A DNA stretch of 64,000 nt from Phycisphaerales bacterium (GTDB lineage: Bacteria > Planctomycetota > Phycisphaerae > Phycisphaerales > UBA1924), in the NCBI GenBank assembly GCA_020853815.1, contig JADYYE010000107.1:11500-75499 (forward strand), read 5' to 3'. Below the pieces are notes generated by a model. The model was given only the letters and a program-made list of their open reading frames with translations, searched no databases and was not told where the DNA came from. The position numbers and the translations under genes are program-made. Each line of letters begins with the position of its first letter. The first letter of the stretch is position 1. Below, piece by piece: positions 17,134 to 61,192 of the stretch.

Positions 17134-17299
17134 GCAAACTCCCGGTGTCGGCGGCCGAATGGCCGATGAAGTTGGAATGCGTATCGGACCAACCGCCGCT
17201 TGACTTTCAACTTTGCCGCGTCGCACCCGGTAATTCACGGCCTCCAAACCATCTTGTGGTGAAACACCTCCCAAGAAATCCACCGGAAATCGAGCCCCC

Positions 17300-18463: not shown

Positions 18464-18585
18464 GGCTCGACGCGCCCCCAGACGCGAATCCCGGGAAAAG
18501 TTCCGCCCGCGTTGTTAGTGTACACTATAGCAATCCCCGCGGCGTACACTCGCGCCGTCGGGTCATCCGCCCCGGAGGCGATCCC

Positions 18586-20289
18586 ATGCTCGCCGGCCAG
18601 CTCCCCCCTCGTCCGCACCCCCGCCGCCCGCCGCACCTTTACCTCGCCGGCCTGACGTTCAAGCGCGCCGACTCCGCCGACGAACTCCGCCAGGTCCACG
18701 AACTGAACTACCTCACCTTTGTCCGCGAGATCGGGCAGCACGAAGACCCCGGAGGCCCCGCGCTCGTCGACAAGTTCCACGATCGAAACCTCTACCTGAT
18801 CGCCAAGCGCGGCCCGGAGGTGGTGGCGATGCTGGCGGTGCACGATCGGCCGCCCTTCTCCGTCGAGTCGCGACTCGATGACCCCTCCTGGATCGACCGC
18901 CATTGCCCGCGCCCCCTGGAAGTCCGCCTGCTGGCGGTGCGCCCCACGGAACGCAAGAGCGTCGTGCTCCCGGGGCTCCTCCTGCTGCTCTACCGGCACG
19001 CCGGCGACGCGGGATACTCGCACCTGCTCGCGTCGGGCGTGCGCCGGCAGCTCGGCATGTACCGCAAACTCGGCTTTGAAGCGATCGGCGCGGAGCGGGC
19101 AACCGGCCACGCGTTCTTCACGCCGCTCGCCATGGCGGTCGACAACCTCCCCGCGCCCATGCGCCGGATCGCGGCGCGCCTGGAGCGGCACGCGGAATCG
19201 AACGAGACGCCCACGCCGGCGGAACGCGTGATCTCGCTGCTCCCCGGGCCGCCGGAGTTTTCGCCCGAGGTCGAGCGGGCGCTGGCGGAGCGCGCCGTCT
19301 CGCACCGGACCTCGGCCTGCGTCGCGCGCTTCGAGCGCTGCCGCGACGTGCTGGGCGCGATGGCGGGCGGCGTGGACGCGGCGATGATGATGGGGAGCGG
19401 CACGCTCGCCAACGAGTGCGTGGCGGCGACGCTCGCGTCGCTCCGCCCGCGCCGCGCGGGGCTGGTGCTCGTCAATGGCGAGTTCGGCGCGCGGCTGGCC
19501 GAACAGGCGCGGCGCTGGGGGCTCGAGTTCAAGATGCTCGAATTCGCGTGGGGGCGTGCCTGGAACATGGACGAAGTGGACGCCGCGCTGAAAGGACTCG
19601 ATGCCGGCGCGTGGGTCTGGGGCGTTCATGGCGAGACCAGCACCGGCGTGCTGAACCCGATCGACGATCTCCTCGCGCGCGCACGCGGTCGCGGCCTGCG
19701 CGTGTGCCTCGACTGCGTCAGCACGCTGGGGAGCGTGCCGCTCGATCTCGACGGTGTGTTCCTGGCGACCAGCGCCAGCGGCAAGTGCCTGGGCTCGCTG
19801 GCCGGGCTGGCGATCCTGCTCGGGAGCGCCGGCGCGCTCCGCGGGCTGCCGACGAACACCGTGCCGCTCGCGCTCGACGCCCGGGCCGCCTTCGACACGC
19901 GCGGCCCGCGCTTCACGATCGCGTCGACGCTGATCAACACGCTCGACGCGGCGCTGGAGCGATTCGCCTCGCGAGAAAAGCGCGAGGCCGAGTACGCGCG
20001 CCTGCGCCGCCTCGGCGCGATGGTGCGCGCCGGGCTGCGTCGCGCGGACGCCCGGCCGATCGCGCCCGACGCGTGCGCCAGCCCGACGGTGACGACCTTC
20101 GAGCCGCCGCCGGGAGAGTCCCCCGAGCGATTCGCGCTGGTGTGTCGGGCGGCGGGGTTCGAGATCAACGTGCAGAGCCCATACCTGCCGCCACGCGGCT
20201 GGGCCCAGATCGCGACGATGGGAAACGTGCAGGAACACGACGTGGAGCGCGTCTTCAAGGCGCTCCATCAATGGCATGGCGCGCGATAA
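18586..20289 (+). CDS. GNAT N-acetyltransferase fused to class V (PhnW/AGXT-like) PLP aminotransferase
   Basis: The N-terminal ~190 aa are GNAT-like (LLAVRPTERKSVVLPGLLLLLY..GMYRKLGFE). The rest is class V aminotransferase with a PLP-lysine context TSASGKCLGS, resembling SSANKC of PhnW. ATG at 18586. Confidence 0.8.
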   Translation: MLAGQLPPRPHPRRPPHLYLAGLTFKRADSADELRQVHELNYLTFVREIGQHEDPGGPALVDKFHDRNLYLIAKRGPEVVAMLAVHDRPPFSVESRLDDPSWIDRHCPRPLEVRLLAVRPTERKSVVLPGLLLLLYRHAGDAGYSHLLASGVRRQLGMYRKLGFEAIGAERATGHAFFTPLAMAVDNLPAPMRRIAARLERHAESNETPTPAERVISLLPGPPEFSPEVERALAERAVSHRTSACVARFERCRDVLGAMAGGVDAAMMMGSGTLANECVAATLASLRPRRAGLVLVNGEFGARLAEQARRWGLEFKMLEFAWGRAWNMDEVDAALKGLDAGAWVWGVHGETSTGVLNPIDDLLARARGRGLRVCLDCVSTLGSVPLDLDGVFLATSASGKCLGSLAGLAILLGSAGALRGLPTNTVPLALDARAAFDTRGPRFTIASTLINTLDAALERFASREKREAEYARLRRLGAMVRAGLRRADARPIAPDACASPTVTTFEPPPGESPERFALVCRAAGFEINVQSPYLPPRGWAQIATMGNVQEHDVERVFKALHQWHGAR

Positions 20290-20325
20290 GACACGCGGCC
20301 GCCCGATCAGATTGATGCGGATCGC

Positions 20326-20643
20326 TCAGGCGACTTCGCGCAGGCGACGATCGAGGCCCACGCGGTAGCCATTGCCCATGGGCAGGCAGCGAACCACCAT
20401 GCCCGACGCGCTCGGGAACCGCGAGCCCTCGGAATACACCGCGACCACCGTGCCGTTCGCCAGCGGCGTGTCGCTGCGCAGGCCCACGCCCGTCGTCGAG
20501 ATGTCCTGCAGGCGCACGCGCGCCAGCGTGGAATCGCCGTCGGGCGTCGTGATGGTGGCCATGACCGTGCCGGCCGCGATCCGCCGACGCGCGCGCCGCC
20601 GGTCAAAGGGGAGCGTCTCTCGAATCTCGGGCTCGTGAGACAT
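20326..20643 (-). CDS. PilZ domain protein
   Basis: RRRARRR (RxxxR) and DISTTG (DxSxxG). ATG at 20643. Confidence 0.7.
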   Translation of the reverse strand: MSHEPEIRETLPFDRRRARRRIAAGTVMATITTPDGDSTLARVRLQDISTTGVGLRSDTPLANGTVVAVYSEGSRFPSASGMVVRCLPMGNGYRVGLDRRLREVA

Positions 20644-20969
20644 GGTCGGGCCTCGCGTAAACCGGGAAGGCGGTCGGGGCGTCCTTGCCCCACCTGACTT
20701 CCCATTGGGATTCCCACCGGGCTTCCCCACTGGGCTTCCCCGTGAGGGCTATCGGCGCTCACATGCCCCGACTTGACCGGGAGTTTCGCGGTTCGCGCCC
20801 CCACCGCGCCGACCCGAGCAGCGAATAACGAGAGCGGACGTGGAATCGTGACGGCGAGCGGAGTGGCGCCGAATTCTGGACGAGCGCGCGGCGGCCATGG
20901 GCCACGAGCTCACATGAAATACCTTCACATGGCACATGAGCAACCGCGTGGAGAGGCCTTGGCGGCCAC

Positions 20970-22361
20970 TCATGACTTCCTCGGCGTCAGCCGGCGCGCC
21001 ACGATGAACGCCAGCTCCAGCGCCTGCTGATAGTTCAGACGCGGGTCGCACAGCGTCGCGTAGTTGCGCGTGAGGTGATGCTCGGTGATGCCCGCGGCGC
21101 CTCCCACGCACTCGGTCACGTCGTCGCCCGTCAGCTCAAAGTGAACGCCGCCCAGGTGCGTGCCGCACGACTGATGAGCGTCAAAGGTCTCTTCGAGCTC
21201 GCTGGCGATCGCGTCGAACGAGCGGGTCTTGATGCCCGAGGCGGTCTTGATCCCGTTGCCGTGCATCGGGTCGCACACCCACAGCACGCGGACCTCGGCC
21301 TTGCGCGCCGCGTCGATGAGCGCCGGGAGCACCTGCTTGGCCCTTCCCTGGCCCAGGCGCGTGATGAGGATGATCTTCCCCGGCTCGTTGCGCGGGTTGA
21401 GCGCGCCGCACAGCGCCAGCACGTCCGACGGCGCCGCGCCCGGCCCGAGCTTGATGCCGATGGGGTTCTGAATCCCCCGGAAATACTCCATGTGCGCCCC
21501 GCCCAGCTCGCGCGTCCGCTCGCCGATCCAGGGCAGGTGGGTGGTGAGGTCGTAGTACCCCTCGCGCCGCGGCACGCGCCGCGTCTGGGCCTCTTCGTAG
21601 TACAGGTTCAGCCCCTCGTGGCTGGTGAAAAACTCCACGCGGTTCATCTCGCCCACCGCGCGCTCGCCCAGCGCTTCCATGAAACGCAGGCCGTCCGCCA
21701 GCGTCGCGGTCATCTGCTCGTACTCCGCGCGTCGCGCGGGCGGAAGCCCGGCGGCCCCGAAGAACGAAAGATCCCAATACTCGGGGTGGTGCAGGTCCGC
21801 GAAGCCGCCCTCCACCAGCGAGCGGATGAAGTTCAGCGTCATCGACGAGTGCTTGTACGCGCGGACAAGCAGGTACGGATCGGGCCGCCGGCTCTTGGCG
21901 TCAAACGGCGCGCGGTTGACCAGGTCGCCGAAATAGCTGGGGTGCGTCACCGGCTGCCCGTCGATCGTTCGCGTCTCGCTCATGCTCGAGCGCGGCTTGG
22001 CGTACTGGCCCGCGAAGCGCCCCACGCGGATCACGGGCTTCTTTCCGCCGTGAACCATGACGAGCGACATCTGCAGAAGGATCTTGAGCTTGTTGGTGAT
22101 GATGTCGGCCCGGCAATCGTCGAGGGTTTCGGCGCAGTCGCCGCCCTGGAGCAGGAAGCGCTGGCCGTTCTGGGCGTCGGCGATCAGCGACTTGAGCCGC
22201 TCGATCTCCCACGACGTGACGAGCGGGGGAAGCGAGCGGAGCAGCTCGACGCTGGCGTCGAGCTCCGCCCGATCGGGATAGTCGATCATCTGCGAATGCG
22301 GGAAACGACGCCACGATTCGGGCGACCAGGGTCCGGGCGTGGCGGTTCGATCGGCGGTCAT
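20970..22361 (-). CDS. class II 3-deoxy-7-phosphoheptulonate (DAHP) synthase
   Basis: 463 aa. WSPESWR, LPPLVTSWEIERLK, LLQGGDCAE and IGERTR blocks are characteristic of plant/actinobacterial-type class II DAHPS. Confidence 0.9.
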   Translation of the reverse strand: MTADRTATPGPWSPESWRRFPHSQMIDYPDRAELDASVELLRSLPPLVTSWEIERLKSLIADAQNGQRFLLQGGDCAETLDDCRADIITNKLKILLQMSLVMVHGGKKPVIRVGRFAGQYAKPRSSMSETRTIDGQPVTHPSYFGDLVNRAPFDAKSRRPDPYLLVRAYKHSSMTLNFIRSLVEGGFADLHHPEYWDLSFFGAAGLPPARRAEYEQMTATLADGLRFMEALGERAVGEMNRVEFFTSHEGLNLYYEEAQTRRVPRREGYYDLTTHLPWIGERTRELGGAHMEYFRGIQNPIGIKLGPGAAPSDVLALCGALNPRNEPGKIILITRLGQGRAKQVLPALIDAARKAEVRVLWVCDPMHGNGIKTASGIKTRSFDAIASELEETFDAHQSCGTHLGGVHFELTGDDVTECVGGAAGITEHHLTRNYATLCDPRLNYQQALELAFIVARRLTPRKS

Positions 22362-22554
22362 CGGCGGCTCCAGTGCGGTCTCGCTCCGAAAAGGAGCGCG
22401 AAACCGCGTCCTCCTCTATCGGATTCTTGCGAGGTTGGCTCATGCGGGCTTGGCCCCATGACGATTTGCAAATCGGCCGATGTAACCACGCAGGGGCGTG
22501 GTCGGCCCAGTCAAGGGCGAGCGCCTCCGCCGCCCCGTGAACGGAGTCACCAGA

Positions 22555-22878
22555 ATGGCTTTCAGCAAACGCCGCACGACCAAGAACACCAAACGCACCA
22601 CGGCCCGCAAGAACGCTCGCAAGACCACCAAGTCCACCGCCCGCAAGTCCGCTACCCGCAAGAACTGGCGCGCGACGGCTCGCAAGACGGCTCGCAAGAC
22701 CACCAAGTCGACCACCGCCAAGGCGTGGACGCCCGCCAAGAACAAGACCTGGAAGCGCACCAGCGCGAAGAAGGCCAGCCGCTCCAACTCGACCAAGAAC
22801 AGCCGCACCACCGCGAAGAAGAGCTTCTTCAGCTTCTCGCGCACGACGGCCAAGAAGTCCTTCCGCCGCGCCGCCTGA
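22555..22878 (+). CDS. highly basic Lys/Arg/Thr-rich histone-H1-like nucleoid protein
   Basis: 107 aa of repeated ARKT/TKST/AKK units with consistent codon usage, followed by a hairpin terminator. Confidence 0.6.
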   Translation: MAFSKRRTTKNTKRTTARKNARKTTKSTARKSATRKNWRATARKTARKTTKSTTAKAWTPAKNKTWKRTSAKKASRSNSTKNSRTTAKKSFFSFSRTTAKKSFRRAA

Positions 22879-22925
22879 ACGACAGGCCAAGCCACCTCGT
22901 CGCGCGATCAGCCGCGCGAAGAGCC

Positions 22926-22950
22926 GAAAGCCCGGTCCGCCCGGGCTTTC
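22926..22950. terminator. bidirectional hairpin between convergent genes
   Basis: GAAAGCCCGG-tccgc-CCGGGCTTTC is a perfect 10-bp stem. It lies 1 nt beyond the stop of the minus-strand GT4 gene and 48 nt after the plus-strand gene. Confidence 0.6.
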
Positions 22951-22951
22951 T

Positions 22952-24262
22952 TCATGCGCACGCGGAGTCGGCGTGAACCTCCGGGCTCGCCTCCCGCGCC
23001 GCGGGCGTCGTGCCGGTGTCCACGGGCGCACCGGGCACGTCGGCCTTCCGCCCGCCGAACCGATGCTTGCGCCACGCGTCCTCGTGTACACGCCAGAAGT
23101 GCTCGAAGGATCGCTCGATCGACATCGCCCGCATCGACTCAAACGCCGCCTCGCCCATCGCGCGCCGTCGCTCGGAGTCGGTGACGAGCGACGCGATCTG
23201 ATCCACCCACAGGTCGGGCCGGTCGGCGGGCAACACAAAGCCCGTCCGCCCGGCGTCGACCACTTCCTTCGGCCCGCCGACATCGCTCACCAGCACCGGC
23301 AGCCCCGACGCCTGCGACTCCATCACCACCTGGCCCAGCGTGTCCGTCACCGAGGGGAACACGAAAAGATCGCTCGACGCGTACAGCGCCGACAGCTCCG
23401 CGCCGTGCCGGAAACCGAGGAACACCGCGCCGCTTCCCTCCAGCTCGCGCTCCATCGTCTCGCGAAAGGGCCCGTCGCCCACGATCACAAGCTGCGCCCG
23501 CGCGCCCGCGGCACGGAGCCTCGCCGCCGCCCGCTTCCACACCGTGTTCAGCAAGGGCAGGTTCTTCTCGATACTGACGCGCCCCACATACAACACGCGC
23601 ACGACGCCGTCGCCCCGCGTTTCGTCGCCGGGCTTGCTGTTGCCGGTCGTGTCGCCGCCCGCCGTCGCGGGGTATCGCGACCAGATCGATGGATCGCGGA
23701 ATCGCCGATCGAAGACACTCGTGTCCACGCCCGGCGCCAGGGCCGTCATGCGCTCGCGGGGCAAGCCCAGCGACACCAGGCGGTCCGCGTAGTCCGCGGA
23801 GCGCGTGAAGACCGCCTTGAACGGACGGTAGAACCACGTCATGTACTGGCGCGTCGTCCACGTCATCGCGTGGTCGTCAAAGAGCTGGTCGATGTACGCC
23901 GGGAAGTCCGTGTGATACACGCCCAGCACCGGCACGCGCAGCATCCTGGCCGCGATGTACCCGATCAGGCCCATCGGCCCGGGCGTCGAGATGTGGATCA
24001 CGTCGGGCTGGTGCCTGTCCAGGTGACGCAGGATCTTCGTCAAGGGCGGCAGCACCAACTCGAGATTCTCATACTTCGGGATCGCGCCCGCGACCAGCGG
24101 CGCAAAGTTGTAGATGTTCGATCGCGTCGGCACCGGCAGACGCGTCGAGGTGATGACCTCAAGATCGCGTCCCGTCCGCTCGGCCATCTCGGCGACGTTC
24201 TGGATGAAGCGGCACACGCCGTTCACGTCGCCCAGCGTGTCGGTGAAGAGAGTTACGCGCAT
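22952..24262 (-). CDS. GT4 family glycosyltransferase
   Basis: MRVTLFTDTLGDVNGVCRF and the C-terminal FPSVTDTLGQVVMESQASGLPV (E-x7-E region). ATG at 24262; upstream extension of the ORF rejected. Confidence 0.85.
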   Translation of the reverse strand: MRVTLFTDTLGDVNGVCRFIQNVAEMAERTGRDLEVITSTRLPVPTRSNIYNFAPLVAGAIPKYENLELVLPPLTKILRHLDRHQPDVIHISTPGPMGLIGYIAARMLRVPVLGVYHTDFPAYIDQLFDDHAMTWTTRQYMTWFYRPFKAVFTRSADYADRLVSLGLPRERMTALAPGVDTSVFDRRFRDPSIWSRYPATAGGDTTGNSKPGDETRGDGVVRVLYVGRVSIEKNLPLLNTVWKRAAARLRAAGARAQLVIVGDGPFRETMERELEGSGAVFLGFRHGAELSALYASSDLFVFPSVTDTLGQVVMESQASGLPVLVSDVGGPKEVVDAGRTGFVLPADRPDLWVDQIASLVTDSERRRAMGEAAFESMRAMSIERSFEHFWRVHEDAWRKHRFGGRKADVPGAPVDTGTTPAAREASPEVHADSACA

Positions 24263-24483
24263 CACGCCGCCCCATGGTTCGCCTCGCTCAAGCGTACGGC
24301 CCGCGCTCGCTCCAAACACGACGCGATCCGGCAATCCCTCCATGACGCGACCCACGAGACGCGCCCCGAGTGGCGCAACCACCCACCGCCGCGAACCCCC
24401 GCCCGCAACGGCGTACCTTTTTCCGGGAACCCACACGCACCCGCGCGCCTCCAAGGTGCGACGACCTTTCACAGGAGACCCAC

Positions 24484-25014
24484 ATGGCCCGCATCACCCC
24501 CGTCGACCCCGCCACCGCCACCGGCCGCGCCAAGGAGATCTTCGAAGGCCCCCTCAAGGGCAAGCACTTCAACATCTTCCGCTCCATGGCCGCCGGACCC
24601 GCCGCCCTCGATGTCTACCTCGGCATGTCCGGCGCCCTCGCCCGCGGCGAACTCTCCGCCAAGGAGCGCGAAGTCATCCAGCTCGCCGTCGGACAGGCCA
24701 CCAACTGCGACTATTGCATCGCCGCCCACACCGCCATCGGCAAGGGCGCCGGGCTCACCGAGGCCCAGACCATCGAGGCCCGCCGCGGCACGCTCAGCGA
24801 CCCCAAGCTCGACGCCCTGGCCAAGTTCGCCCTCAAAATCCACGAGAAGCGCGGCTTCGTCAACGACGCCGACCTCGCCGCCTTCAAGAAGGCCGGATAC
24901 TCCGACGCCCACGTCGCCGAAGCGATCGCCAACTACGCGCTGGCCCTCTACACCAACTACTTCAACCACGTCAACGACACCACGTCCGACTTCCCCGCCC
25001 CGCCCGCGATCTGA
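24484..25014 (+). CDS. carboxymuconolactone decarboxylase / AhpD-like family protein
   Basis: ReviQLAVGQATNCDYCIAAHT contains the AhpD-type CxxC motif. Typical ~175-aa size. Confidence 0.85.
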   Translation: MARITPVDPATATGRAKEIFEGPLKGKHFNIFRSMAAGPAALDVYLGMSGALARGELSAKEREVIQLAVGQATNCDYCIAAHTAIGKGAGLTEAQTIEARRGTLSDPKLDALAKFALKIHEKRGFVNDADLAAFKKAGYSDAHVAEAIANYALALYTNYFNHVNDTTSDFPAPPAI

Positions 25015-25053
25015 AACAAGCGGCGACCGCGGCGCAGGGTCGAATGAACGTAG

Positions 25054-25151
25054 GGAACTTCTGAGTATTTGGTGGCCCGCTTCTCCGAAGCGGGTTTTCT
25101 GGACCAAGGGAGGCGATGTTCGCTCCGCGGTTTGAATTGATCAGAGGTTCC
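25054..25151 (+). mobile_element. 98-bp MITE/REP-like element, copy 1
   Basis: Termini GGAACTTCTGA ... TCAGAGGTTCC (inverted, 1 mismatch). Internal hairpin CCCGCTTC-tcc-GAAGCGGG followed by TTTT (25076-25098) can serve as terminator of the AhpD-like gene. Collinear with 44110..44207. Confidence 0.6.
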
Positions 25152-25214
25152 GTGGTACTGTGATCGAACGATACGGCGTTTCCGAGAAAAGACTGCAATC
25201 CCACGGCACCCAGG

Positions 25215-25242
25215 TTGACAAGCAGGGAGGGGGGGGTATTCT
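25215..25242 (+). promoter_or_regulatory. candidate sigma70-type promoter with G8 tract in the spacer
   Basis: TTGACA (25215-25220), then a 16-nt spacer ending in GGGGGGGG (25229-25236), then TATTCT (25237-25242). This lies about 50 nt upstream of the ATG at 25295. Confidence 0.4.
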
Positions 25243-25294
25243 GCGCACGATCGTTGGGCCGGACTCCTGACGTACATTATTCAAGGGGAGTGTG

Positions 25295-25573
25295 ATGAAG
25301 CGTTCCTCTCGGGTGCTGAGGCTTGGGTTGTGCTTCATTGCGGGTTTGGCGGGCAGGGCGTTTGCCGACGAATGGCCGTTTCCCTGGCCGCCGGACCCCA
25401 CCCCGGGGGGTGCGCTGTGCGGGCACAACGCGGGGTGCTACGAGCGATCAAGCTTCTACGACTGCCGTCGCTGTTGTGAGGCAAATTGCGACGACAGTAA
25501 CAATTGCAACAATGCCTGCTGGAACCACTTCTGCCGCTTTAGTTCCTCCGATCCGACCTGTCCGCAAGCGTAA
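25295..25573 (+). CDS. small secreted cysteine-rich protein (10 Cys), module copy 1
   Basis: GGGGAG SD lies 4 nt before the ATG. Signal peptide ends AFA|DE. The mature ~68 aa align with 29961..30233 and all 10 Cys are conserved. Confidence 0.7.
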   Translation: MKRSSRVLRLGLCFIAGLAGRAFADEWPFPWPPDPTPGGALCGHNAGCYERSSFYDCRRCCEANCDDSNNCNNACWNHFCRFSSSDPTCPQA

Positions 25574-25642
25574 GACTCCCGGTGGTTGTGGCCGCAACCG
25601 TTGCGGACCATGAAGTATCGCGGCGGGGGTACGGAGAAAAAC

Positions 25643-26257
25643 ATGCGGGGGCGTCGGCTCACGAGCGCGTTCGGTGCGTTGAGAGAGCGTCCGAGGCGGA
25701 CGATGGTTCTGTTCGGCGTCGTCCTGATCGGGGGTGGGTGGCTCGTCGGAAGCTGGTTGCTCGGGGAACGGCACCGGAAGGAGCGTGATGAGCGCATCCG
25801 CGCCGAGGCCGTTGAGTTCTCCAAGAAAACCGGTGCAGGTATGGACGCGTCGGTTGCGATCTGCACGATGGGCGTGGACCCCGACCAGCTCCAGAAGCTG
25901 CCGCTGGATGAGTTGAAGCGCTGGAGCATTTGGTACTCGGAGTTCGAGGGCAAGGATCGTCGCCGGGTGGCCGGATATTGCAACGCGCTGTTCCATCCCG
26001 CCTCGATCAGGAATTTCAGACAGGAACAGCTGGAGATCGCGCGGAACGCCACCAGGGAGATCATCGGAGAGTTCTGGAACGATCCCAAGATCATCGGGCA
26101 GGCCTATCTCATCGCGGTCGGCCTCGGGATGCGGGACGAGCCATACATTCAAGAAATGGCGCTCGATACGATTCAAGCCCCGGGGATGGCGCCCGAGTTG
26201 ATCAGCATGATCTCCCACTCCGTACTTCCCAAGAAGAAGAGCGAAAAGGAAAAATAG
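25643..26257 (+). CDS. single-pass membrane protein, module copy 1
   Basis: GGAG lies 6 nt before the ATG at 25643. TM helix MVLFGVVLIGGGWLVGSWLL. The block LEIARNATREIIGEFWNDPKIIGQAYLIAVGLGMRDEPYIQEMA is nearly identical in 30246..30842. Confidence 0.7.
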   Translation: MRGRRLTSAFGALRERPRRTMVLFGVVLIGGGWLVGSWLLGERHRKERDERIRAEAVEFSKKTGAGMDASVAICTMGVDPDQLQKLPLDELKRWSIWYSEFEGKDRRRVAGYCNALFHPASIRNFRQEQLEIARNATREIIGEFWNDPKIIGQAYLIAVGLGMRDEPYIQEMALDTIQAPGMAPELISMISHSVLPKKKSEKEK

Positions 26258-26259
26258 CC

Positions 26260-27393
26260 ATGCCGACGGGAAACCACTCGGCGCAACGTCACCACTCTCT
26301 CGCTCCGAGGGGGAGACCGCCGGGGCGCCGCGGGGGTTTCTCTCTAGTTGAGCTGCTGGTCGTGATCGGGATCGTTGCTGTATTGGTCGGGCGTACTCTC
26401 CCGGCGCTCGCGGCCGCGAAGGCGCGCGCCGCGCGGGCGGCGTGCTTGTCGAATCTCAGAGGACTCGGGCAGGCTGTTGCCCAGTACCGAAGCCGGCACC
26501 AGGATCGCTTCCCGGACGCGGACTTGCTCCCGGACATCCCGGCCGGAAAGCCCGGCGTGATCGAACCCCTCTCACCTTTCTTGGACTGCGCCCTTCCTCG
26601 CGTTGGCGCGGCGGGCGATGTCGAAACGGACGCCCCGTGGCGCTGTCGCTCCGACGCAGTCGTCGCGCGACGCTTCGGAATGAGCTACGAGTATGAACTC
26701 GCGACGCTGATCATGGCGTACAAACTTGGCGGCACGCAGAACCCGCACGCCAAAGTCGCGAACACGGCGGACACCGACGGCGGCCTGGTCCTCTTCTCGG
26801 ACGCAGGCGCCGCCGCGCGACTTGCCGCGGGTGATTCAGCCCCCTGGCACCGCGGCCCAAACGGAAAAGAGCGCAACTCGCTCTTCGCGGACGGCCGCGC
26901 GGATTGGGAGAAGAATTCGCCGACCCGCGCAACACGCCGCGGGCCGCCGCTTGCCCCGCGCCGACGACGGACGAACGGAGAGCCGATCCGCCTCCTCTTC
27001 GCCCTCAGTCCACGCTCGCCCTCGCCATCGGCCTCGACAACTCCAGCATCCGATCAACCGCCAAGAGCGCCTGCGCGCACCTTCTCCGGCACGCTGATCT
27101 GGTTCACAACCTTCGCCTTGCCGTCCTTCGACAACGCGCCCGCCATCGCTCATCGCGCCGACGAGCGGGAGGCATCGCGAACCCGCACACCTCGGGCGGG
27201 ACGGCGGATCAACATGCCAGCACTGGCGAAGAAAAGAGTCACGGCCCCCGGCGCGGGCACAACCCGCCAGACCACATGGTTCGTCAAATCGGAGACGTAC
27301 AAATGCCCGGCGTCGTCAAAGGTGAGGCCGCTGATCTGGCCGAACCCCGAACCGACCTGTTGTACCGCGCCGCCGGCGCGCGGCAGCGAGTAG
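26260..27393 (+). CDS. prepilin-type N-terminal cleavage/methylation protein (H-X9-DG-like), module copy 1, abnormally extended 3' end
   Basis: GFSLVELLVVIGIVAVLV leader/helix. Aligns with 30839..31501 up to ADGRADWEK (~26915). The frame then stays open for a further ~480 nt through the nadA fragment and the antisense of the next gene. Confidence 0.65.
   Translation: MPTGNHSAQRHHSLAPRGRPPGRRGGFSLVELLVVIGIVAVLVGRTLPALAAAKARAARAACLSNLRGLGQAVAQYRSRHQDRFPDADLLPDIPAGKPGVIEPLSPFLDCALPRVGAAGDVETDAPWRCRSDAVVARRFGMSYEYELATLIMAYKLGGTQNPHAKVANTADTDGGLVLFSDAGAAARLAAGDSAPWHRGPNGKERNSLFADGRADWEKNSPTRATRRGPPLAPRRRRTNGEPIRLLFALSPRSPSPSASTTPASDQPPRAPARTFSGTLIWFTTFALPSFDNAPAIAHRADEREASRTRTPRAGRRINMPALAKKRVTAPGAGTTRQTTWFVKSETYKCPASSKVRPLIWPNPEPTCCTAPPARGSE
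27004..27145 (-). pseudogene. duplicated, frameshifted fragment of the nadA 3' end
   Basis: By hand alignment it is about 90% identical to 28577-28720 (the last ~47 codons and stop of nadA). A 2-nt deletion breaks the frame. Confidence 0.8.
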
Positions 27394-28133
27394 AGATTCT
27401 CGCCGTCACCGACGATGAACGAATCGGTCGACGGCTGATACACCATCGCATCGGGGAGAGACCAGGCATGACCGCCATCGGAGACCTTGGCAATCGACCC
27501 GTCCGGCGCGATCGCCCAGACGCCGAGGTCTTCCAGCGTCTCGGTGCAGTACAGGCCGCCCGCCGCGAACTGGATGGAACGCACGACCGACAATTTGGGC
27601 GAGGAAACCAGCGTCTGCGCAGGGCTGCCGGCAAACAACAATTCAACATCGGCGCCGTCCCGTGCGTTACCGACAACCGCCGTTCCAGCGGTGAAATACG
27701 TGCCGTCCTTGTCAATGACCATGCTCGACTGATTGGGTGATCCGCTCGCGCTCGCCCAGAGGGTCGTTATGCCGGTCGTAATCTCGGTGCGATACACCGG
27801 GCCTTCCGTCGAGGCGTAGACATAGCCGTCGTACACATCAATCCCGTCGGGGTCTTCGGGTGTGATCGAGCCGAACGCGACCGCCGCGCCCCCGCCCGCC
27901 GGAATCCGATAAATATCGGCCGCCCCGTTGCTCGGTGAGTGGTGTCCGGCGAAAAGAACCCCCCCCGGCCCGAACGCGAGCTCGAACGGGTTCGTCGCCG
28001 TGGCATAGACGCTCGCCGGGTTGCCCAGCCAAGTCGGCTGAGCGCACGCCGAGCTCGTCACAAAGACACAAGCGCAAACAGCGATGAGCGCGCTTGAACG
28101 AGAAAACGATCCGCCATTATGATTCTTTCCCAT
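27150..28133 (-). CDS. secreted beta-propeller (NHL/SMP-30-like) protein with PEP-CTERM-like tail
   Basis: GAGGAG lies 8 nt before the ATG at 28133. Signal peptide LIAVCACVFVTSSACAQP. Repeated G..Y/L-strand motifs (LYCTE, LYSLP, LYVSD). C-terminus VPAPGAVTLFFASAGMLIRR resembles a PEP-CTERM sorting signal. Confidence 0.7.
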   Translation of the reverse strand: MGKNHNGGSFSRSSALIAVCACVFVTSSACAQPTWLGNPASVYATATNPFELAFGPGGVLFAGHHSPSNGAADIYRIPAGGGAAVAFGSITPEDPDGIDVYDGYVYASTEGPVYRTEITTGITTLWASASGSPNQSSMVIDKDGTYFTAGTAVVGNARDGADVELLFAGSPAQTLVSSPKLSVVRSIQFAAGGLYCTETLEDLGVWAIAPDGSIAKVSDGGHAWSLPDAMVYQPSTDSFIVGDGENLYSLPRAGGAVQQVGSGFGQISGLTFDDAGHLYVSDLTNHVVWRVVPAPGAVTLFFASAGMLIRRPARGVRVRDASRSSAR

Positions 28134-28577
28134 CTCTCTTCTCCTCAAAGGACACCGCCGAGACTACTGGGTGCTTGACCCCACTTCAAGCACAATTCCG
28201 CCCGGCTCTCCTTTATTTTCAGGATCACACAATCCCAATTCTCGGACCTTGGGACTTCGCTTTCGCCGCGTTGCGACGCGCGGGGGAGAGGTGCCGCATC
28301 AAGGGCGACCGGCCTACGCGCCCAGTTCACCGCTTCAGCTCTACGTCCTCGAGCCCCGCGCCTTCGGACGCCGGACCTGATACGGATTCTGCTTGGAAAC
28401 CGCGCGTGACTTGGGCTACCCCCACGCTCCGCGTGGGGTTCCTTCAGGCCCTCCAAGCGCATGTTCCAACGAGAATCCGTATGAGGCATTGCGAAGGTCC
28501 GGGTCGACGCAACGAGATCGCCCGTTCGCGCCGAACTCACTCGACCACTTGACCACTTTGCCACTTTTCGCTTGGCC

Positions 28578-29819
28578 TCAATCCACGCCCGCCTTCGCCC
28601 CCGGCCTCGACAACTCCAGCATCCGATCGACCGCCAACAGCGCCTGCTCGCGCACCTTCCCCGGCACGCTGATCTGGTTCACGATCTTCGCCTTGCCGTC
28701 CTTCGACAGGCCGCCCGCCAGGTGATCGAGCACCCACAACAAATGCGGCTCATCGATCCGGTACATCGTCGTGCACAGGCACTGACAATCGCTCAGGATG
28801 CGCACCTCAACGCCCCGTGCCGCGGCCTCTTTCGCAAGCCTTCCCACCAGGTGCGTCTCGGTACCAACCGCCCAGCGCGATCCCGGCGCCGACGCGCGGA
28901 TCGCCTGGATGATGAACTCCGTCGACCCCGACAAGTCCGCGAGGTCCACAACCTCTTTGCAGCACTCCGGGTGAACCAGGATCTTCACGCCCTCGCGCGT
29001 CGCGCCCGCCGCCTTCTCGCGCTCGTTTTCCTCGCGGATCGCGCGGCAGTGCTCCGGGCGGAACAGCTTGTGAACCGAGCAATGCCCCGCCCACAGGATC
29101 ACCTCCGCCCGCTCGATCGCCCCGCGCGATGAGCCGCCCAGCTCCTTGCCCGCGTGCGCCGCGCGCGGGTCATAGAGCGCCGCCCGCGTGGCGACATCGA
29201 TCCCCGCCGCCGCGGCCGTGTTCCGCCCCAGGTGCTGATCGGGCAGGAACAAAACCTTGATCTCCTCGCCCGGGCGCGTCGGGATCGTGCCGCCCGCGCG
29301 GGCCCACGCGAAGACCTGCCTTGCGTTCGAGCTGGTGCAGCACGCGCCGCCGTTCGCTCCGACAAACGCCTTGATCGCCGCCGACGAGTTCACATAGGTG
29401 ATGGGCACGACACGCGCGTTCAGTTTCGCGTCCTTGATCACGCGCTGGATCGAATCCCACGCCTCGACCGTGTCGTCGTACTGCGCCATGTCCGCCATCG
29501 AGCAGCCCGCGGAAAGATCGGGCAAGATCACCGCGACATGGTCGGGCGTCAGCATGTCCGCCGTCTCGGCCATGAAATGCACGCCGCAGAACACGACGTA
29601 CTTCACCGGGCGTTCCTTGGCGACGCGGGCGGCGACCTGCGAGAGCTTGAGCGAATCGCCCGTCGCGTCGGCGTGCCTCACGACCTGATCGGTCTGGTAG
29701 TGGTGGCCCAGGATGAAGAGCGAATCGCCGAGCTCCTTGCGGCGCGCGTCGATCCGGGCCGCGAGCTCGTCCTCGCTCAGCGTGCGATACACCTCGGGGA
29801 GTGATGGTTGCCAGAGCAC
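28578..29819 (-). CDS. nadA: quinolinate synthase NadA
   Basis: ILGHHYQ, VVFCGVHFMAETA, ILPDLSAGCSMADMA, CCTSSNA and HPEC blocks are NadA signatures. GTG start at 29819. Confidence 0.9.
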   Translation of the reverse strand: MLWQPSLPEVYRTLSEDELAARIDARRKELGDSLFILGHHYQTDQVVRHADATGDSLKLSQVAARVAKERPVKYVVFCGVHFMAETADMLTPDHVAVILPDLSAGCSMADMAQYDDTVEAWDSIQRVIKDAKLNARVVPITYVNSSAAIKAFVGANGGACCTSSNARQVFAWARAGGTIPTRPGEEIKVLFLPDQHLGRNTAAAAGIDVATRAALYDPRAAHAGKELGGSSRGAIERAEVILWAGHCSVHKLFRPEHCRAIREENEREKAAGATREGVKILVHPECCKEVVDLADLSGSTEFIIQAIRASAPGSRWAVGTETHLVGRLAKEAAARGVEVRILSDCQCLCTTMYRIDEPHLLWVLDHLAGGLSKDGKAKIVNQISVPGKVREQALLAVDRMLELSRPGAKAGVD

Positions 29820-29878
29820 GCGGGGATGGTAGTAATCCCGGGGTTAGACGGGATGCCAAACTCGACTTGACGGGTTGA

Positions 29879-29893
29879 GGGGGGGGGGGGGGG
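29879..29893. repeat. G15 homopolymer in the nadA / module-2 divergent intergenic region
   Basis: 15 consecutive G counted directly. It is preceded by TTGACG (29867-29872) and followed by ATAGGCT. Confidence 0.95.
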
Positions 29894-29960
29894 ATAGGCT
29901 CGGAGGAGGGTCGTGAACGATTCTGTGCGATAGACCAGCTTGTTGAAGGGACTCGAACTG

Positions 29961-30233
29961 ATGCAAACGCGAAACATCACCCGTCTCGGCCTGTGCTTTG
30001 CCGCTGGGATTGCGTGCTCCGCCATCGCCGACGGGTGGCCATATCCTTGGCCACCGGACCCGAACCCAGGCGGCGCTTTGTGCGGCTACCAATCCGGGTG
30101 CCAAGACAAGGCAGACTTCAACTCCTGCACGCGTTGCTGTGATACCCATTGCGACGCGAGTAATAATTGCTATAATGCGTGCTGGTTCTTCTTCTGCACC
30201 AACGGCAAGACCAGTGCCGGCTGCCCACAGTGA
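29961..30233 (+). CDS. small secreted cysteine-rich protein (10 Cys), module copy 2
   Basis: MQTRNITRLGLCFAAGIACSAIA|DG signal. The mature part aligns with 25295..25573 (WPyPWPPDPxPGGALCG...RCC...SNNC.NACW..FC...CPQ). Confidence 0.7.
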   Translation: MQTRNITRLGLCFAAGIACSAIADGWPYPWPPDPNPGGALCGYQSGCQDKADFNSCTRCCDTHCDASNNCYNACWFFFCTNGKTSAGCPQ

Positions 30234-30245
30234 CAGGATTAGACG

Positions 30246-30842
30246 ATGCGGACCAACGACCTCACGCGTGGCGCGTCTTCGCAGAGTCGGCGCCGAGTAG
30301 CGGTTGTGCTGGCAGGGTTGTCCTTGATCGCCTCCGGGTGGCTTGGCGGCCGGGCGATCCTTCGCGAGATGCACCGGCGGGATCGGGCGTCCCAAGTCCA
30401 CGCCGAAGCAGTTGAGTACGCCCAGAAAGTTCATGTGAGCATGGAGGTCGCAACCGCCATTTGTGAACTTTGCGGCGACCCCGGCGCGATTGCGCGCATG
30501 TCCCCGACGGAGCTGCGCCGGTTGGCGACGCGGTACGCGGACTTTGAAGGCCCCGACCGCGCACGCGTCGCCAGGTATTGCAACGGGCTGTTTCATCCCG
30601 CCTCCATTCGAGAGTTGAGTGACGAGCAATTGGAAATCGCCCGGAACGCCACCCGCGACATCATCGGTGAGTTCTGGAACGACCCCAAGATACTGGGTCA
30701 GGCGTACCTCGTCGCGGCCGGACTTGGTCTGAGGGATGATCCATACATCAAAGAGATGGCAAACCAGACCTTGCAAGAGCCCGGGCTTGATCCAACGCTC
30801 GCCGACACGGTCATCGTGGCCATTCTGCGCCCTCAGAAGTGA
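30246..30842 (+). CDS. single-pass membrane protein, module copy 2
   Basis: ATG lies 12 nt after the previous stop. TM helix VAVVLAGLSLIASGWLGG. Conserved C-terminal block shared with 25643..26257. Confidence 0.7.
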   Translation: MRTNDLTRGASSQSRRRVAVVLAGLSLIASGWLGGRAILREMHRRDRASQVHAEAVEYAQKVHVSMEVATAICELCGDPGAIARMSPTELRRLATRYADFEGPDRARVARYCNGLFHPASIRELSDEQLEIARNATRDIIGEFWNDPKILGQAYLVAAGLGLRDDPYIKEMANQTLQEPGLDPTLADTVIVAILRPQK

Positions 30843-31501
30843 CGCCGGGACCGGAGTACGCAGTGCACGCCGCCTCTCAAATGCTCGCTCGAATGGCGGC
30901 CCGCAGGCCGTCCTCCCAGCCCACTGGGTTCACGCTCATCGAGCTCTTGGTCGTCCTTGGGATCGTGGCTCTCCTGATCGCGATCTCGCTTCCCGCGCTG
31001 GCTTCAGCTCGCGCCACGGCCGCCAGAACAACATGCCTGTCAAACCTTCGAAGCCTGGGGCAGGCTCTTGCGTTGTACCGAAACGCCCACCAGGGGCTCT
31101 TTCCCGATTCCGCGATCCTGCCCGATCTTCCCGCCGGGAAGCCCGGACTGATCGAACCTCTCTCGGCACACATGGATGGCGCCCGTCCTCAACTCGGTCC
31201 GACGGGCGAGGTTGATGCGGCGCTCCCGTGGCGCTGCCCGCCGGATCGGGTGGTGGCAAACAGGTTCGGAATGAGCTACGAGTATGAACTCGCGGCCTTG
31301 GTCCAGGCCTACAAGATGGACGGCATCCAAAACGCCATGAGCCGAGTTTCACGCCAGGCCGACGACACGCGCCTGATCGTCCTCGCCGACGCGCCGATCT
31401 CCCTCCGATATGCCGCGGGCGATTCGACACCCTGGCATCACGGGCCGGACGGAAAGGACCGCAACGCCCTGCGCTCCGATGGCGGCGCGGACTGGAACTG
31501 A
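30839..31501 (+). CDS. prepilin-type N-terminal cleavage/methylation protein (H-X9-DG-like), module copy 2
   Basis: GTGA start/stop overlap with the previous gene (alternative ATGs at 30881 and 30893). [23 protein letters not shown]. The C-terminal WHHGPDGKDRNALRSDGGADW resembles the H-X9-DG region with longer spacing. Confidence 0.75.
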   Translation: MTPGPEYAVHAASQMLARMAARRPSSQPTGFTLIELLVVLGIVALLIAISLPALASARATAARTTCLSNLRSLGQALALYRNAHQGLFPDSAILPDLPAGKPGLIEPLSAHMDGARPQLGPTGEVDAALPWRCPPDRVVANRFGMSYEYELAALVQAYKMDGIQNAMSRVSRQADDTRLIVLADAPISLRYAAGDSTPWHHGPDGKDRNALRSDGGADWN

Positions 31502-31584
31502 TACGGCACCTTCCCCACCCACATCGTCCGCCCGCCCCTTCCTGCCACCCGTGCCACGCCCGGCCCCAACGCCTCCTGCCCTCC

Positions 31585-61186: not shown

Positions 61187-61192
61187 CGAAGA

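What the first reader, a model, noticed from the sequence alone, without database searches (positions are those of the whole stretch)
27004..28720. Decayed duplicate of the nadA 3' end brackets a 1.4-kb segment carrying the PEP-CTERM-like beta-propeller gene
By hand alignment, 27004-27145 aligns with 28577-28720 (the nadA stop codon plus its last ~47 codons) with 13 mismatches and one 2-nt indel that frameshifts the left copy. Similarity begins exactly at the stop codon and ends inside the gene. The two copies are direct repeats separated by the propeller gene (27150-28133) and about 440 nt of lower-GC non-coding DNA. This is the architecture left by an element that integrates into the 3' end of a gene and supplies a replacement 3' end, leaving the displaced original as a pseudo-fragment. 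No integrase is present, so this would be a remnant or a non-canonical insertion.
Basis: partly seen in the sequence, partly recalled or inferred. Interest (0 to 1): 0.62.

Follow-up and report, generated by a model that had tools for sequence, protein, structure and literature searches.

The report
Stranded nadA tail beside inserted gene
A dead 143-base copy of the end of the NAD-synthesis gene nadA was left behind when strain-to-strain recombination, not a phage-type integrase, slipped a 1.6-kb piece carrying a surface-protein gene into the end of nadA; it is real, neatly traceable, and biologically fairly ordinary.

Summary
Window 27003-27145 and 28576-28720 are direct repeats, 89.7% identical, with 13 mismatches and a 2-nt deletion in the left copy.

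A relative provides the empty site. In L198-L201 the order is CMD, module 1, nadA, module 2, dehydrogenase, with nadA 85 nt from the module-1 pilin gene. Those same assemblies keep the propeller gene next to glyA.

The window equals that arrangement plus 1,575 nt (27146-28720). The two copies are the ends of two different nadA alleles. The left copy resembles the resident allele and keeps its module-1 flank. The right copy and the whole nadA resemble the L002 allele, and its downstream spacer comes from a lineage without module 1.

The junction between the propeller gene and the nadA fragment lies on a 10-nt microhomology (CTGGCGGGCG) with the propeller gene's flank at the glyA locus.

No recombinase gene is present in any of the five arrangements examined. 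The same fragment-plus-propeller junction also occurs in a widespread third arrangement with no intact nadA nearby.

The mechanism is homologous plus illegitimate recombination between strains, not an integrative element. The order of events is only partly resolved. Interest is modest.

The parts
27003..27145 (-). Left copy: dead 3' fragment of nadA ('relic'). The former stop codon is at 27005-27007. A 2-nt deletion lies at 27078/27079.
   Evidence: pair it with the right copy; its flank, its stop-proximal bases (27008 G, 27016 T, 27027 A) and its inner bases (ACAACC, GACAAC) match the functional nadA of the empty-site relative L198/L201; across strains it varies at least as fast as third codon positions and collects indels, so it is not under selection.
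28576..28720 (-). Right copy: the working 3' end of nadA, the last 47 codons plus the stop at 28578-28580.
   Evidence: it is 93.7% identical to L002, like the rest of the gene at 94.2%; its stop-proximal and inner bases are of the L001/L002 type, not the L198 type.
28578..29819 (-). nadA, quinolinate synthase, 413 aa, intact.
   Evidence: inside the coding sequence it shares 8 derived sites with L002, 3 with L001 and none with the module-bearing relative L198.
27137..27146 (-). Junction microhomology: CTGGCGGGCG on the sense strand. In this genome 27146 has since mutated from G to T.
   Evidence: One search aligns three sequences. glyA-locus flank...GAGCG CTGGCGGGCG CGGGTTGAAC. Relic...GAGCG CTGGCGGGCG CGTTGTCGAAGG. 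nadA...CAC CTGGCGGGCG GCCTGTCGAAGG. The sequences on either side of the 10-mer are unrelated; the L198 allele reads CAT CTGGCGGGCG GGTTGTCG.
27147..28367 (-). Propeller cassette: the coding sequence 27150-28133 (signal peptide, beta-propeller, PEP-CTERM-like tail) plus 234 nt of its own upstream DNA.
   Evidence: It is shared at 95.6-98.5% with loci in three other arrangements. Homology to all of them stops at 28367; third-position divergence is 1.8-2.4% between lineages, against 10-14% for the flanking genes.
28368..28514 (.). Segment found only in this arrangement. It holds an imperfect palindrome with arms 28376-28408 and 28454-28486 and an inner hairpin at 28420-28438.
   Evidence: One search lists it as I1. 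DNA fold -34.9 kcal/mol, z = -5.1; no Rfam family; no other copy in about 200 loci; its core 28414-28485 has extra depth and roughly 90% matches with other flanks in runs X5 and X3.
28515..28577 (.). Spacer just downstream of the working nadA stop, containing 9-nt TGACCACTT-like repeats. It is homologous to the spacer of the module-less P arrangement, not to module 1.
   Evidence: One search shows the alignment; local alignment score 20 against shuffles of 9.3 +/- 1.3, with 0 of 300 shuffles reaching it.
27029..27055 (.). 27-nt stretch identical in both copies (the partner is 28602-28628). The P-type relic switches here from matching the right copy to matching the left copy.
   Evidence: in the stop-proximal 48 nt, P matches the right copy with 0 differences and differs from the left copy at 5 sites. 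In the inner 95 nt, P matches the left copy (1 difference) and differs from the right copy in 10 columns. Logan contigs of both types end or begin at 27029-27058.
25015..26996 (+). Module 1: Cys-rich small protein 25292-25573, 204-223-aa protein ending at 26257, and pilin-like gene from 26260. It is the resident left flank of the insertion.
   Evidence: It is present in the same place in L198-L201 and absent from L001-L003, L118, L119 and all P loci.

Best explanation
**Starting state.** The genome began like the relative L198: CMD, module 1, nadA, module 2, dehydrogenase. In that relative the propeller gene sits elsewhere, between an 83-aa gene and glyA.

**The event.** DNA from a related strain without module 1 entered and recombined. 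It carried a nadA of the L002 type, that gene's own downstream spacer with a palindromic element, and the propeller cassette ending 15 nt past its stop codon.
- One end paired homologously along nadA. This replaced the resident allele up to the limit of homology.
- The other end had no homology. It joined illegitimately at a 10-nt microhomology (CTGGCGGGCG) that lies 143 nt before the resident stop codon.

**The result.** The last 143 nt of the resident nadA were not replaced. They were pushed 1,575 nt downstream, still attached to module 1. There they are a non-functional relic with a 2-nt frameshift and drift freely.

**What this resembles.** It is homology-facilitated illegitimate recombination. 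It gives the same picture as an integrase-built attL/attR pair without any site-specific recombinase.

**What is shown**
- the empty site
- the two allele types
- the foreign spacer
- the microhomology
- the neutrality of the relic
- the absence of recombinase genes

**What is inferred**
- that one import did all of this
- the donor arrangement (nadA, spacer, palindrome, propeller), which was not observed
- the route of DNA entry

**What is unresolved.** I could not determine how the same relic-propeller junction came to sit in the widespread P arrangement: PAD-type gene, 83-aa gene, propeller, relic, spacer, CMD.
For: - **Empty site.** L198-L201 have the pilin gene, 85 nt, then nadA. The window is collinear with L198 over 15582-37859 apart from the extra 27146-28720.
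- **Same genome holds both partners.** The propeller-glyA contigs come from the same MAG and the same three runs as the empty-site contigs.
- **Allele types.** The left copy matches L198 in its flank, its stop-proximal sites and its inner sites (55 of 56). The right copy matches L001/L002 at the same sites.
- **Whole gene replaced.** The window's nadA shares 8 derived sites with L002 and none with L198, although modules 1 and 2 exist only in the window and in L198.
- **Foreign downstream DNA.** The spacer 28515-28577 is homologous to the P-type spacer and is absent from L198.
- **Junction.** It lies on a 10-nt microhomology flanked by unrelated sequence.
- **Not a back-deletion.** L198 is not a repeat-mediated deletion product of the window, because its inner segment is of the left-copy type.
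- **Relic is neutral.** Its diversity is 2.4% against 1.2% at third codon positions, and its indels vary between strains.
- **No recombinase.** No recombinase family appears in the precomputed Pfam hits for the window-type, P, G, Q and D loci, nor in my scans.
- **Recent exchange.** The cassette has about 5-fold lower synonymous divergence than its flanks.
Against: - **No donor found.** No contig has nadA followed by the palindrome and the propeller gene without the relic. In nine runs, every contig that spans the 28367/28368 boundary between the palindrome segment and the cassette is of the window type.
- **The P arrangement is hard to derive from the window type.**
  - It carries the same relic, with the same 2-nt deletion and the same junction.
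  - It is commoner and more diverse.
  - In run X6 the P contig is the only nadA-3'-like sequence at 80% or more. That fits a nadA split by a rearrangement in that lineage, which would make the relic's inner 95 nt an import.
- **Identity with P in a variable stretch.** The right copy's stop-proximal 48 nt are identical to the P relic. A single crossover with a P-type relic explains this more directly.
- **Cluster of changes.** The relic differs from L198 at four clustered positions in the middle segment.
- **Thin allele evidence.** The allele classes rest on about 8 sites in a population with much recombination. All four combinations of the two classes occur among the sampled alleles.
Confidence: 0.45

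Rival explanations
1. Single-crossover (Campbell-type) insertion. The relic first arose in the P lineage, when a microhomology-mediated rearrangement split nadA and fused its last 143 nt to the propeller gene's flank. A small circular or tandem piece of that region (relic, propeller cassette, palindrome, spacer) later recombined once with the intact nadA of a module-1 genome, inside the 27-nt identical stretch. On this reading only the stop-proximal part of the left copy is resident. The frameshifted inner 95 nt came in with the cassette, and the working gene received the donor's last 48 nt and spacer.
For: - The reciprocal pattern fits. The P relic equals the right copy in the stop-proximal 48 nt (0 differences) and equals the left copy in the inner 95 nt (1 difference). 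By hand, Fisher p is about 3e-4 for 5 versus 10 informative columns.
- P is abundant, diverse, and sits in nadA's native place beside CMD.
- In run X6 the P contig is the only nadA-3'-like sequence at 80% or more, while a contig of similar depth carries the nadA 5' end and the dehydrogenase gene.
- The insert is exactly one repeat period, 1,573-1,575 nt.
Against: - It needs a donor relic that is L002-like near the stop but L198-like inside, and a recipient nadA that is the reverse.
- It needs a separate earlier replacement of exactly nadA in the recipient.
- Known P spacers are only about 75-80% like 28515-28577 and lack the palindrome.
- No circle or tandem form was seen.
- The homology available is only 143 nt at about 92%.
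- The window's cassette is not nested within sampled P cassettes: 15-22 differences to P, against 3-15 among P.
Confidence: 0.25
2. Remnant of a site-specific integrative element of the e14/icd type. A tyrosine-recombinase island integrated into the nadA 3' end and brought a substitute end. It later lost its integrase and most of its genes, leaving the propeller gene and the palindrome.
For: - The architecture matches e14: a gene that runs into the element, and a C-terminal pseudogene at the far end (PMC13626634).
- An empty site exists in a relative.
- The substitute end carries its own downstream DNA.
- A strongly folding palindrome lies beside the substitute end.
Against: - No recombinase is found in the window-type contigs over 17150-39295, nor in any P, G, Q or D locus.
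- The cargo is an ordinary chromosomal gene with its own promoter region, found beside glyA or gmk in relatives.
- The far junction is a microhomology with that gene's former flank, not an att core.
- The whole nadA, not just its end, is of the foreign allele type.
Confidence: 0.07
3. In-place duplication. The genome duplicated its own nadA end, by replication template switching or a long staggered break, while copying the propeller cassette in from the glyA locus. The left copy then decayed.
For: - The microhomology at the junction fits template switching.
- The palindrome could be fold-back filler. Its arms are 79% complementary, roughly twice the divergence between the copies.
- Both partners, nadA and the glyA-locus flank, exist in the empty-site genome.
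Against: - The right copy is followed by a spacer that the module-1 genome does not have and the module-less P lineage does.
- Seven of the differences between the copies are states of two living alleles.
- nadA as a whole is not of the resident type.
Confidence: 0.08
4. Assembly artefact that stitched two strains together.
For: The samples hold at least four related strains, and Logan contigs break at the shared 27029-27058 stretch.
Against: - A JGI contig is identical over 12.7 kb.
- Zero-mismatch contigs cross each junction. For 26916-27078 and 27086-27250 this is run X11. For 28175-28514 and 28653-28738 it is X22. For 28318-28625 it is X2, and for 28349-28689 it is X20.
- These runs come from several studies.
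Confidence: 0.01

Closest known systems
e14 prophage in the icd gene of E. coli K-12 (icd plus the icdC pseudogene)
   Same: A housekeeping gene runs into inserted DNA that supplies its last codons. The original C-terminal fragment survives as a pseudogene at the far end. The two ends are direct repeats that differ at a few sites (PMC13626634, which cites Hill et al. 1989).
   Different: - e14 is a 15-kb element with its own integrase and SOS-induced excision.
- Here the insert is 1.4 kb with one ordinary gene and no recombinase.
- The far junction is a microhomology with the cargo's earlier flank.
- The whole host gene, not just its tail, is of the incoming allele.
Homology-facilitated illegitimate recombination, described in Acinetobacter, Streptococcus pneumoniae, Pseudomonas stutzeri and, by conjugation, E. 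coli
   Same: One end of the incoming DNA is anchored by homology and the other joins at a short microhomology, carrying foreign DNA in (PMC3240628; PMC5361080). The window shows a foreign allele contiguous with the cargo and a 10-nt microhomology at the far end.
   Different: This case is inferred from natural variants only. The donor arrangement was not observed. Uptake competence of these uncultured Phycisphaerales is unknown. The illegitimate end landed inside the anchor gene, so a piece of the target was kept rather than deleted.
Orphan 3' ends in Rhs, CDI and type VI effector-immunity arrays
   Same: Successive imports through a conserved 5' region push the former 3' part downstream, where it stays as an orphan fragment that records the event (PMC5361080).
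   Different: Those loci are built for such turnover, and their orphans often keep working immunity genes. Here it is a single event at a metabolic gene, and the orphan has no visible use.

Membership tests
Site-specific integrative element in the 3' end of a gene (e14/icd type) | Integrase or recombinase gene inside the element next to one att site | tested here: not met
   The precomputed Pfam lists for the window-type contigs (17150-39295) and for the P, G, Q and D loci show none. My own Pfam scans of neighbouring ORFs also found none.
Site-specific integrative element in the 3' end of a gene (e14/icd type) | Empty site in relatives, and an element-borne substitute 3' end | tested here: met
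   L198-L201 lack 27146-28720. The right copy and its spacer are of a different lineage.
Site-specific integrative element in the 3' end of a gene (e14/icd type) | Both element ends defined by a shared core (attL/attR), with the far junction at that core | tested here: not met
   A 27-nt identical stretch exists, but it is conserved coding sequence. The far junction, at 27137-27146, is a microhomology with the cargo gene's flank at the glyA locus.
Site-specific integrative element in the 3' end of a gene (e14/icd type) | The same element recurs at the same target in other genomes, or excises | tested here: not met
   The cargo is found at glyA, at gmk and at the relic-CMD position. No excision joint appears in eight runs.
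Homology-facilitated illegitimate recombination | Foreign allele tract (the anchor) contiguous with the inserted DNA | tested here: met
   nadA shares 8 derived sites with L002 and none with L198, while its flanking modules are shared only with L198.
Homology-facilitated illegitimate recombination | Short microhomology at the non-homologous end | tested here: met
   The 10-mer CTGGCGGGCG is shared by the glyA-locus flank, the relic and nadA, with unrelated sequence on both sides.
Homology-facilitated illegitimate recombination | A donor molecule with the anchor and cargo linked, and DNA uptake by the recipient | tested here: inconclusive
   No contig has nadA, palindrome and propeller without the relic. 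Competence cannot be tested here.
Campbell-type single-crossover insertion | The two repeats are reciprocal hybrids of donor and recipient | tested here: inconclusive
   The pattern is reciprocal relative to the P relic. Relative to the empty-site allele, each copy is uniform in type.
In-place segmental duplication | Both copies descend from the resident sequence and share its flanks | tested here: not met
   The right copy's flank is absent from the empty-site genome, and the copies carry two allele types.
Integron gene cassette (attC) | Imperfect palindrome at the 3' end of the cassette, an integron integrase, and an array | tested here: not met
   The palindrome lies upstream of the cargo gene, there is no integrase, and there is a single cassette. 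The core motifs were checked only by eye.
MITE-like palindromic repeat (for 28376-28486) | Many copies with terminal inverted repeats and target duplications | tested here: inconclusive
   There is one copy in the window and none in about 200 loci. The core shows extra depth and roughly 90% matches with other flanks in runs X5 and X3. Those copies could not be read.
PEP-CTERM sorting-signal protein (cargo gene) | C-terminal PEP motif, hydrophobic span and basic tail recognised by the family models | tested here: inconclusive
   The tail VPAPGAVTLFFASAGMLIRRPARG fits by eye. No Pfam or NCBIfam PEP-CTERM hit at E <= 0.01; only weak NHL and ScyE matches. NCBI names 56%-identical homologues 'PEP-CTERM sorting domain-containing protein'.

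The most novel reading that the evidence does not exclude
The relic may not be a mere scar. It could be what lets the propeller cassette travel. On this reading, a captured 143-nt piece of a conserved housekeeping gene serves as a portable homology anchor. With it, an integrase-less one-gene cassette (relic, gene, palindromic closure site) could insert by host RecA next to nadA in any related strain. This would explain three observations. Relic and cassette are 98-99% identical in two different genomic backgrounds whose flanking genes differ by 5-10%. The two copies in the window are reciprocal hybrids relative to the P relic. The insert is exactly one repeat period long.
Probability: 0.12. 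Interest if true: 0.6.

Novelty: new member of a known kind. Interest (0 to 1): 0.3.

Why it matters
This is a clean natural example of how recombination between co-existing strains can mimic the attL/attR signature of an integrative element. It produces a gene with a substitute end, a stranded original end and an empty site in a relative. Genome scans that call islands from duplicated gene ends would misfile it.

It also shows that uncultured wastewater Phycisphaerales exchange single surface-protein genes much faster than their neighbouring genes diverge. The nadA 3' flank is a repeated breakpoint of gene order in this group.

None of this changes what is known about mechanisms. The value is as a worked case and as a caution for annotation.

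Tried and rejected
- **Module duplication as the source.** I first asked whether the repeat came from the duplication that made modules 1 and 2. It did not: their proteins are only 50-58% identical and their flanks are unrelated.
- **A misread joint.** I read a joint in run X2 (25014 to 28538) as an insert-free arrangement. This was wrong. The loose end shows it is the P arrangement.
- **A spurious skip.** A 103-nt skip over the palindrome in run X1 looked like a presence/absence variant. It comes from 24-nt chance matches to unrelated contigs.
- **Palindrome versus P spacer.** I tested whether the palindrome segment is the diverged far part of the P spacer. It is not significant.
- **Search for the reciprocal product.** I looked for nadA, palindrome, propeller, glyA, and for a module-1 genome lacking only the cassette, in eight runs. 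Neither was found.
- **Linking L001/L119 to P.** I tried to link the L001/L119 arrangement (nadA followed by window 11491 onward, inverted) to the P arrangement as two ends of one inversion. Similar depths in X2 and X4 hint at it, but no contig joins them.
- **Cassette distances.** A distance table of the cassette does not place the window's copy inside or outside P.
- **Negative scans.** Rfam, promoter and terminator scans gave nothing useful.
- **Odd contig.** L099 lacks 28266-28722 and has an 81.5% nadA tract. I treated it as chimeric or as another allele and did not use it.

Full report
**1. The observation**

Window 27003-27145 and 28576-28720 are direct repeats. They have 13 mismatches and one 2-nt gap in the left copy, and are 89.7% identical over 145 columns (E = 3.5e-47).

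The right copy is the last 47 codons plus the stop of nadA. nadA is 28578-29819 on the minus strand, 413 aa (Pfam NadA 1.3e-79).

Two features lie between the copies:
- a 327-aa gene at 27150-28133 on the minus strand, with a signal peptide, weak NHL and ScyE-type propeller matches and a PEP-CTERM-like tail
- 444 nt of lower-GC DNA

The structure is real. A JGI contig (L098) is 99.99% identical over 17150-29893. Zero-mismatch Logan contigs from runs of several studies cross each junction.

**2. Relatives show five arrangements of the same parts**

The organism is an uncultured Phycisphaerales bacterium from wastewater and activated sludge.

| Type | Loci | Gene order |
|---|---|---|
| A | L002, L003 | dehydrogenase, nadA, about 100 nt, CMD; no propeller gene, no modules |
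| D | L198-L201 | CMD, module 1, nadA, module 2, dehydrogenase; the module-1 pilin gene ends 85 nt from the nadA stop |
| Q | L112-L117 | 83-aa gene, propeller gene, 217 nt, glyA (SHMT, 1e-104) |
| P | L092-L097, L101-L111 | peptidyl-arginine-deiminase-family gene, 83-aa gene, propeller gene, the same nadA fragment, 186-nt spacer, CMD; no intact nadA nearby |
| G | L081-L084 | as P upstream, but guanylate kinase downstream |

The Q contigs come from the same MAG (GCA_964651175.1) and the same three runs as the D contigs.

P is common, found in many samples, and diverse.

G is more distant.

The window is collinear with D from 15582 to 37859, apart from 1,575 extra bases, 27146-28720.

**3. The two copies are the ends of two alleles**

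I aligned both copies with the D, P, L001, L002 and L003 sequences.

The left copy matches the D allele in three places:
- its left flank, which is the end of module 1
- its stop-proximal variable sites (G, T, A)
- its inner segment (ACAACC and GACAAC; 55 of 56 bases)

The right copy has the L001/L002 states at those same sites.

Only the middle of the left copy carries changes seen in no working allele: A, G, the 2-nt deletion and T.

Inside the coding sequence, the window's nadA shares 8 derived sites with L002, 3 with L001 and none with D. Yet modules 1 and 2 are found only in the window and in D.

The 60 nt just past the working stop codon (28515-28577) are absent from D. They are homologous to the spacer that follows the relic in P.

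So the sharp start of similarity at the stop codon has a simple cause. The two copies carry the downstream DNA of two different lineages.

D is not a product of recombination between the window's repeats, because its inner segment is of the left-copy type.

**4. The cargo-side junction**

The Q flank, the relic and nadA share exactly CTGGCGGGCG. On both sides of it they are unrelated. The D allele also has the 10-mer.

Homology of the window to Q runs from 28367 to 27135. Homology to P runs to 26997. Homology to G runs only to 27199.

A junction on a 10-nt microhomology, with the cargo's former flank on one side, is the mark of illegitimate recombination. A site-specific att junction would not look like this.

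**5. No mobility genes**

The precomputed Pfam lists for all these loci, and my own scans, show no integrase, transposase or other recombinase near the cassette in any arrangement.

**6. The relic is neutral and the cassette was exchanged recently**

Among P and window sequences the relic's inner part has 2.4% diversity. The propeller gene has 1.2% at third codon positions, and its upstream DNA has 1.9%.

Strains differ by further 1- and 2-nt indels in the relic.

| Gene | Third-position divergence between the window, P and Q/D lineages |
|---|---|
| propeller gene | 1.8-2.4% |
| CMD | 10-12% |
| nadA | 11-14% |
| middle gene of module 1 | 12.7% |

The cassette has therefore been shared between lineages much more recently than its neighbours diverged.

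**7. The most likely history**

The simplest account of the window is one import into a D-type genome.

The incoming DNA comprised:
- a nadA of L002 type
- its spacer, with a palindromic element
- the propeller cassette with 15 nt of its glyA-side flank

The import would have proceeded as follows:
- The DNA paired along nadA, the only homology available because the donor lacked both modules.
- It replaced the resident allele.
- Its far end joined at the microhomology 143 nt before the resident stop.
- That left the resident tail stranded next to module 1.

This is homology-facilitated illegitimate recombination as described experimentally (PMC3240628; PMC5361080 and the references in it). It leaves each copy uniform in allele type, as observed.

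**8. What does not fit, and the main rival**

The P relic is a hybrid:
- It is identical to the right copy in the stop-proximal 48 nt.
- It is identical, bar one base, to the left copy in the inner 95 nt.
- The switch lies in the 27-nt stretch 27029-27055.

By hand, Fisher p is about 3e-4.

P is hard to derive from the window type without a large rearrangement.

In run X6 the P contig is the only nadA-3'-like sequence at 80% or more. A contig of like depth carries the nadA 5' end and the dehydrogenase gene. That suggests nadA may be split in P genomes.

If so, the relic arose there. The window would then have received relic plus cassette by a single crossover in the 27-nt stretch.

That rival has its own costs:
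- It needs donor and recipient alleles that are each hybrids of opposite kind.
- It needs a separate earlier replacement of nadA.
- It needs an unseen circular or tandem donor.
- It needs a P spacer unlike the known ones.

Cassette distances do not decide between the two accounts. I hold the import at 0.45 and the single crossover at 0.25.

Both accounts share the main points:
- recombination between strains
- no site-specific recombinase
- a relic with no function

**9. Comparison with what is known**

The picture is that of e14 in icd: a gene running into the element, with a C-terminal pseudogene at the far end (PMC13626634). The defining features of an integrative element are not met; the membership table lists them.

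It works like homology-facilitated illegitimate recombination. It also resembles the orphan 3' ends left in Rhs, CDI and type VI arrays (PMC5361080).

**10. Verdict**

The finding is real and its topology was read correctly. The proposed agent, an integrating element, is not supported. It is a well-documented small structural variant of a known kind, of modest interest.

Noticed in passing
window 26917-26919 (pilin-like gene 26260 onward): The module-1 pilin gene has lost its stop codon. L198 has TAG after 219 codons, while the window has TCG. The ORF therefore reads on for about 160 codons, through the nadA relic and antisense into the propeller gene, ending at 27393. Gene callers skipped it in L098.
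   Followed up: partly
window 25015-26996 and 29833-31582: Two paralogous three-gene modules flank nadA on both sides in the same orientation. Each holds a Cys-rich secreted protein of about 95 aa, a roughly 200-aa protein with no family, and a prepilin-type protein. Their proteins are 50-58% identical. The modules occur only in the window type and in L198-L201, and each replaces a short intergenic spacer of the relatives. The middle protein has only 5 homologue clusters in 5.8 billion proteins.
   Followed up: partly
nadA 3' flank in L001/L119, L118, L002/L003: The DNA after the nadA stop differs in every close relative. It is CMD in L002 and L003. It is window 11491 onward in inverted orientation in L001 and L119. 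It is window 50869 downward in L118. The nadA 3' end is a repeated breakpoint of gene order in this group.
   Followed up: partly
window 28414-28485: The core of the palindrome has 3-8 times the depth of its flanks in runs X5 and X3. Short contigs about 90% alike continue into other sequence. It may be a dispersed small palindromic repeat. No other copy exists in the window or in about 200 fetched loci.
   Followed up: partly
window 29879-29893: A run of 15 G lies between the nadA start and module 2. A contig in run X2 lacks 5 of them, so the length is either variable or poorly assembled.
   Followed up: no
window 28530-28566: 9-nt repeats (TGACCACTT and variants) lie in the spacer after nadA. 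Copy number and spelling differ between the window, P loci, and loose ends in runs X1 and X5 (GGCCACTTGGCCACTTGGCCACT).
   Followed up: no
L099 9858-9869 (JGI 61.5-kb contig): This otherwise identical contig lacks window 28266-28722, and its nadA is only 81.5% identical over 28723-29727. It is either a chimeric assembly or a strain with yet another nadA allele and a deletion.
   Followed up: no
L101, L104, L108, L109 positions 138-1257: Some P-type strains carry an extra 1.1 kb with a gene of 309 aa or more, with no Pfam match, upstream of the 83-aa gene.
   Followed up: partly
window 50715-50869 and 61044-61191: Two places in the window are 75-94% identical to the 3' end of the peptidyl-arginine-deiminase-family gene of the P loci (L092 3901-4066). 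This is probably a shared C-terminal domain or sorting signal.
   Followed up: no
L081 3446-3495 versus window 27150-27198: In the G arrangement, identity to the window drops from 95.6% to about 60% over the last 16 codons of the propeller gene. The neighbouring deiminase-family gene is only 85% identical to that of P. This points to a recombination tract that ends inside the gene.
   Followed up: no
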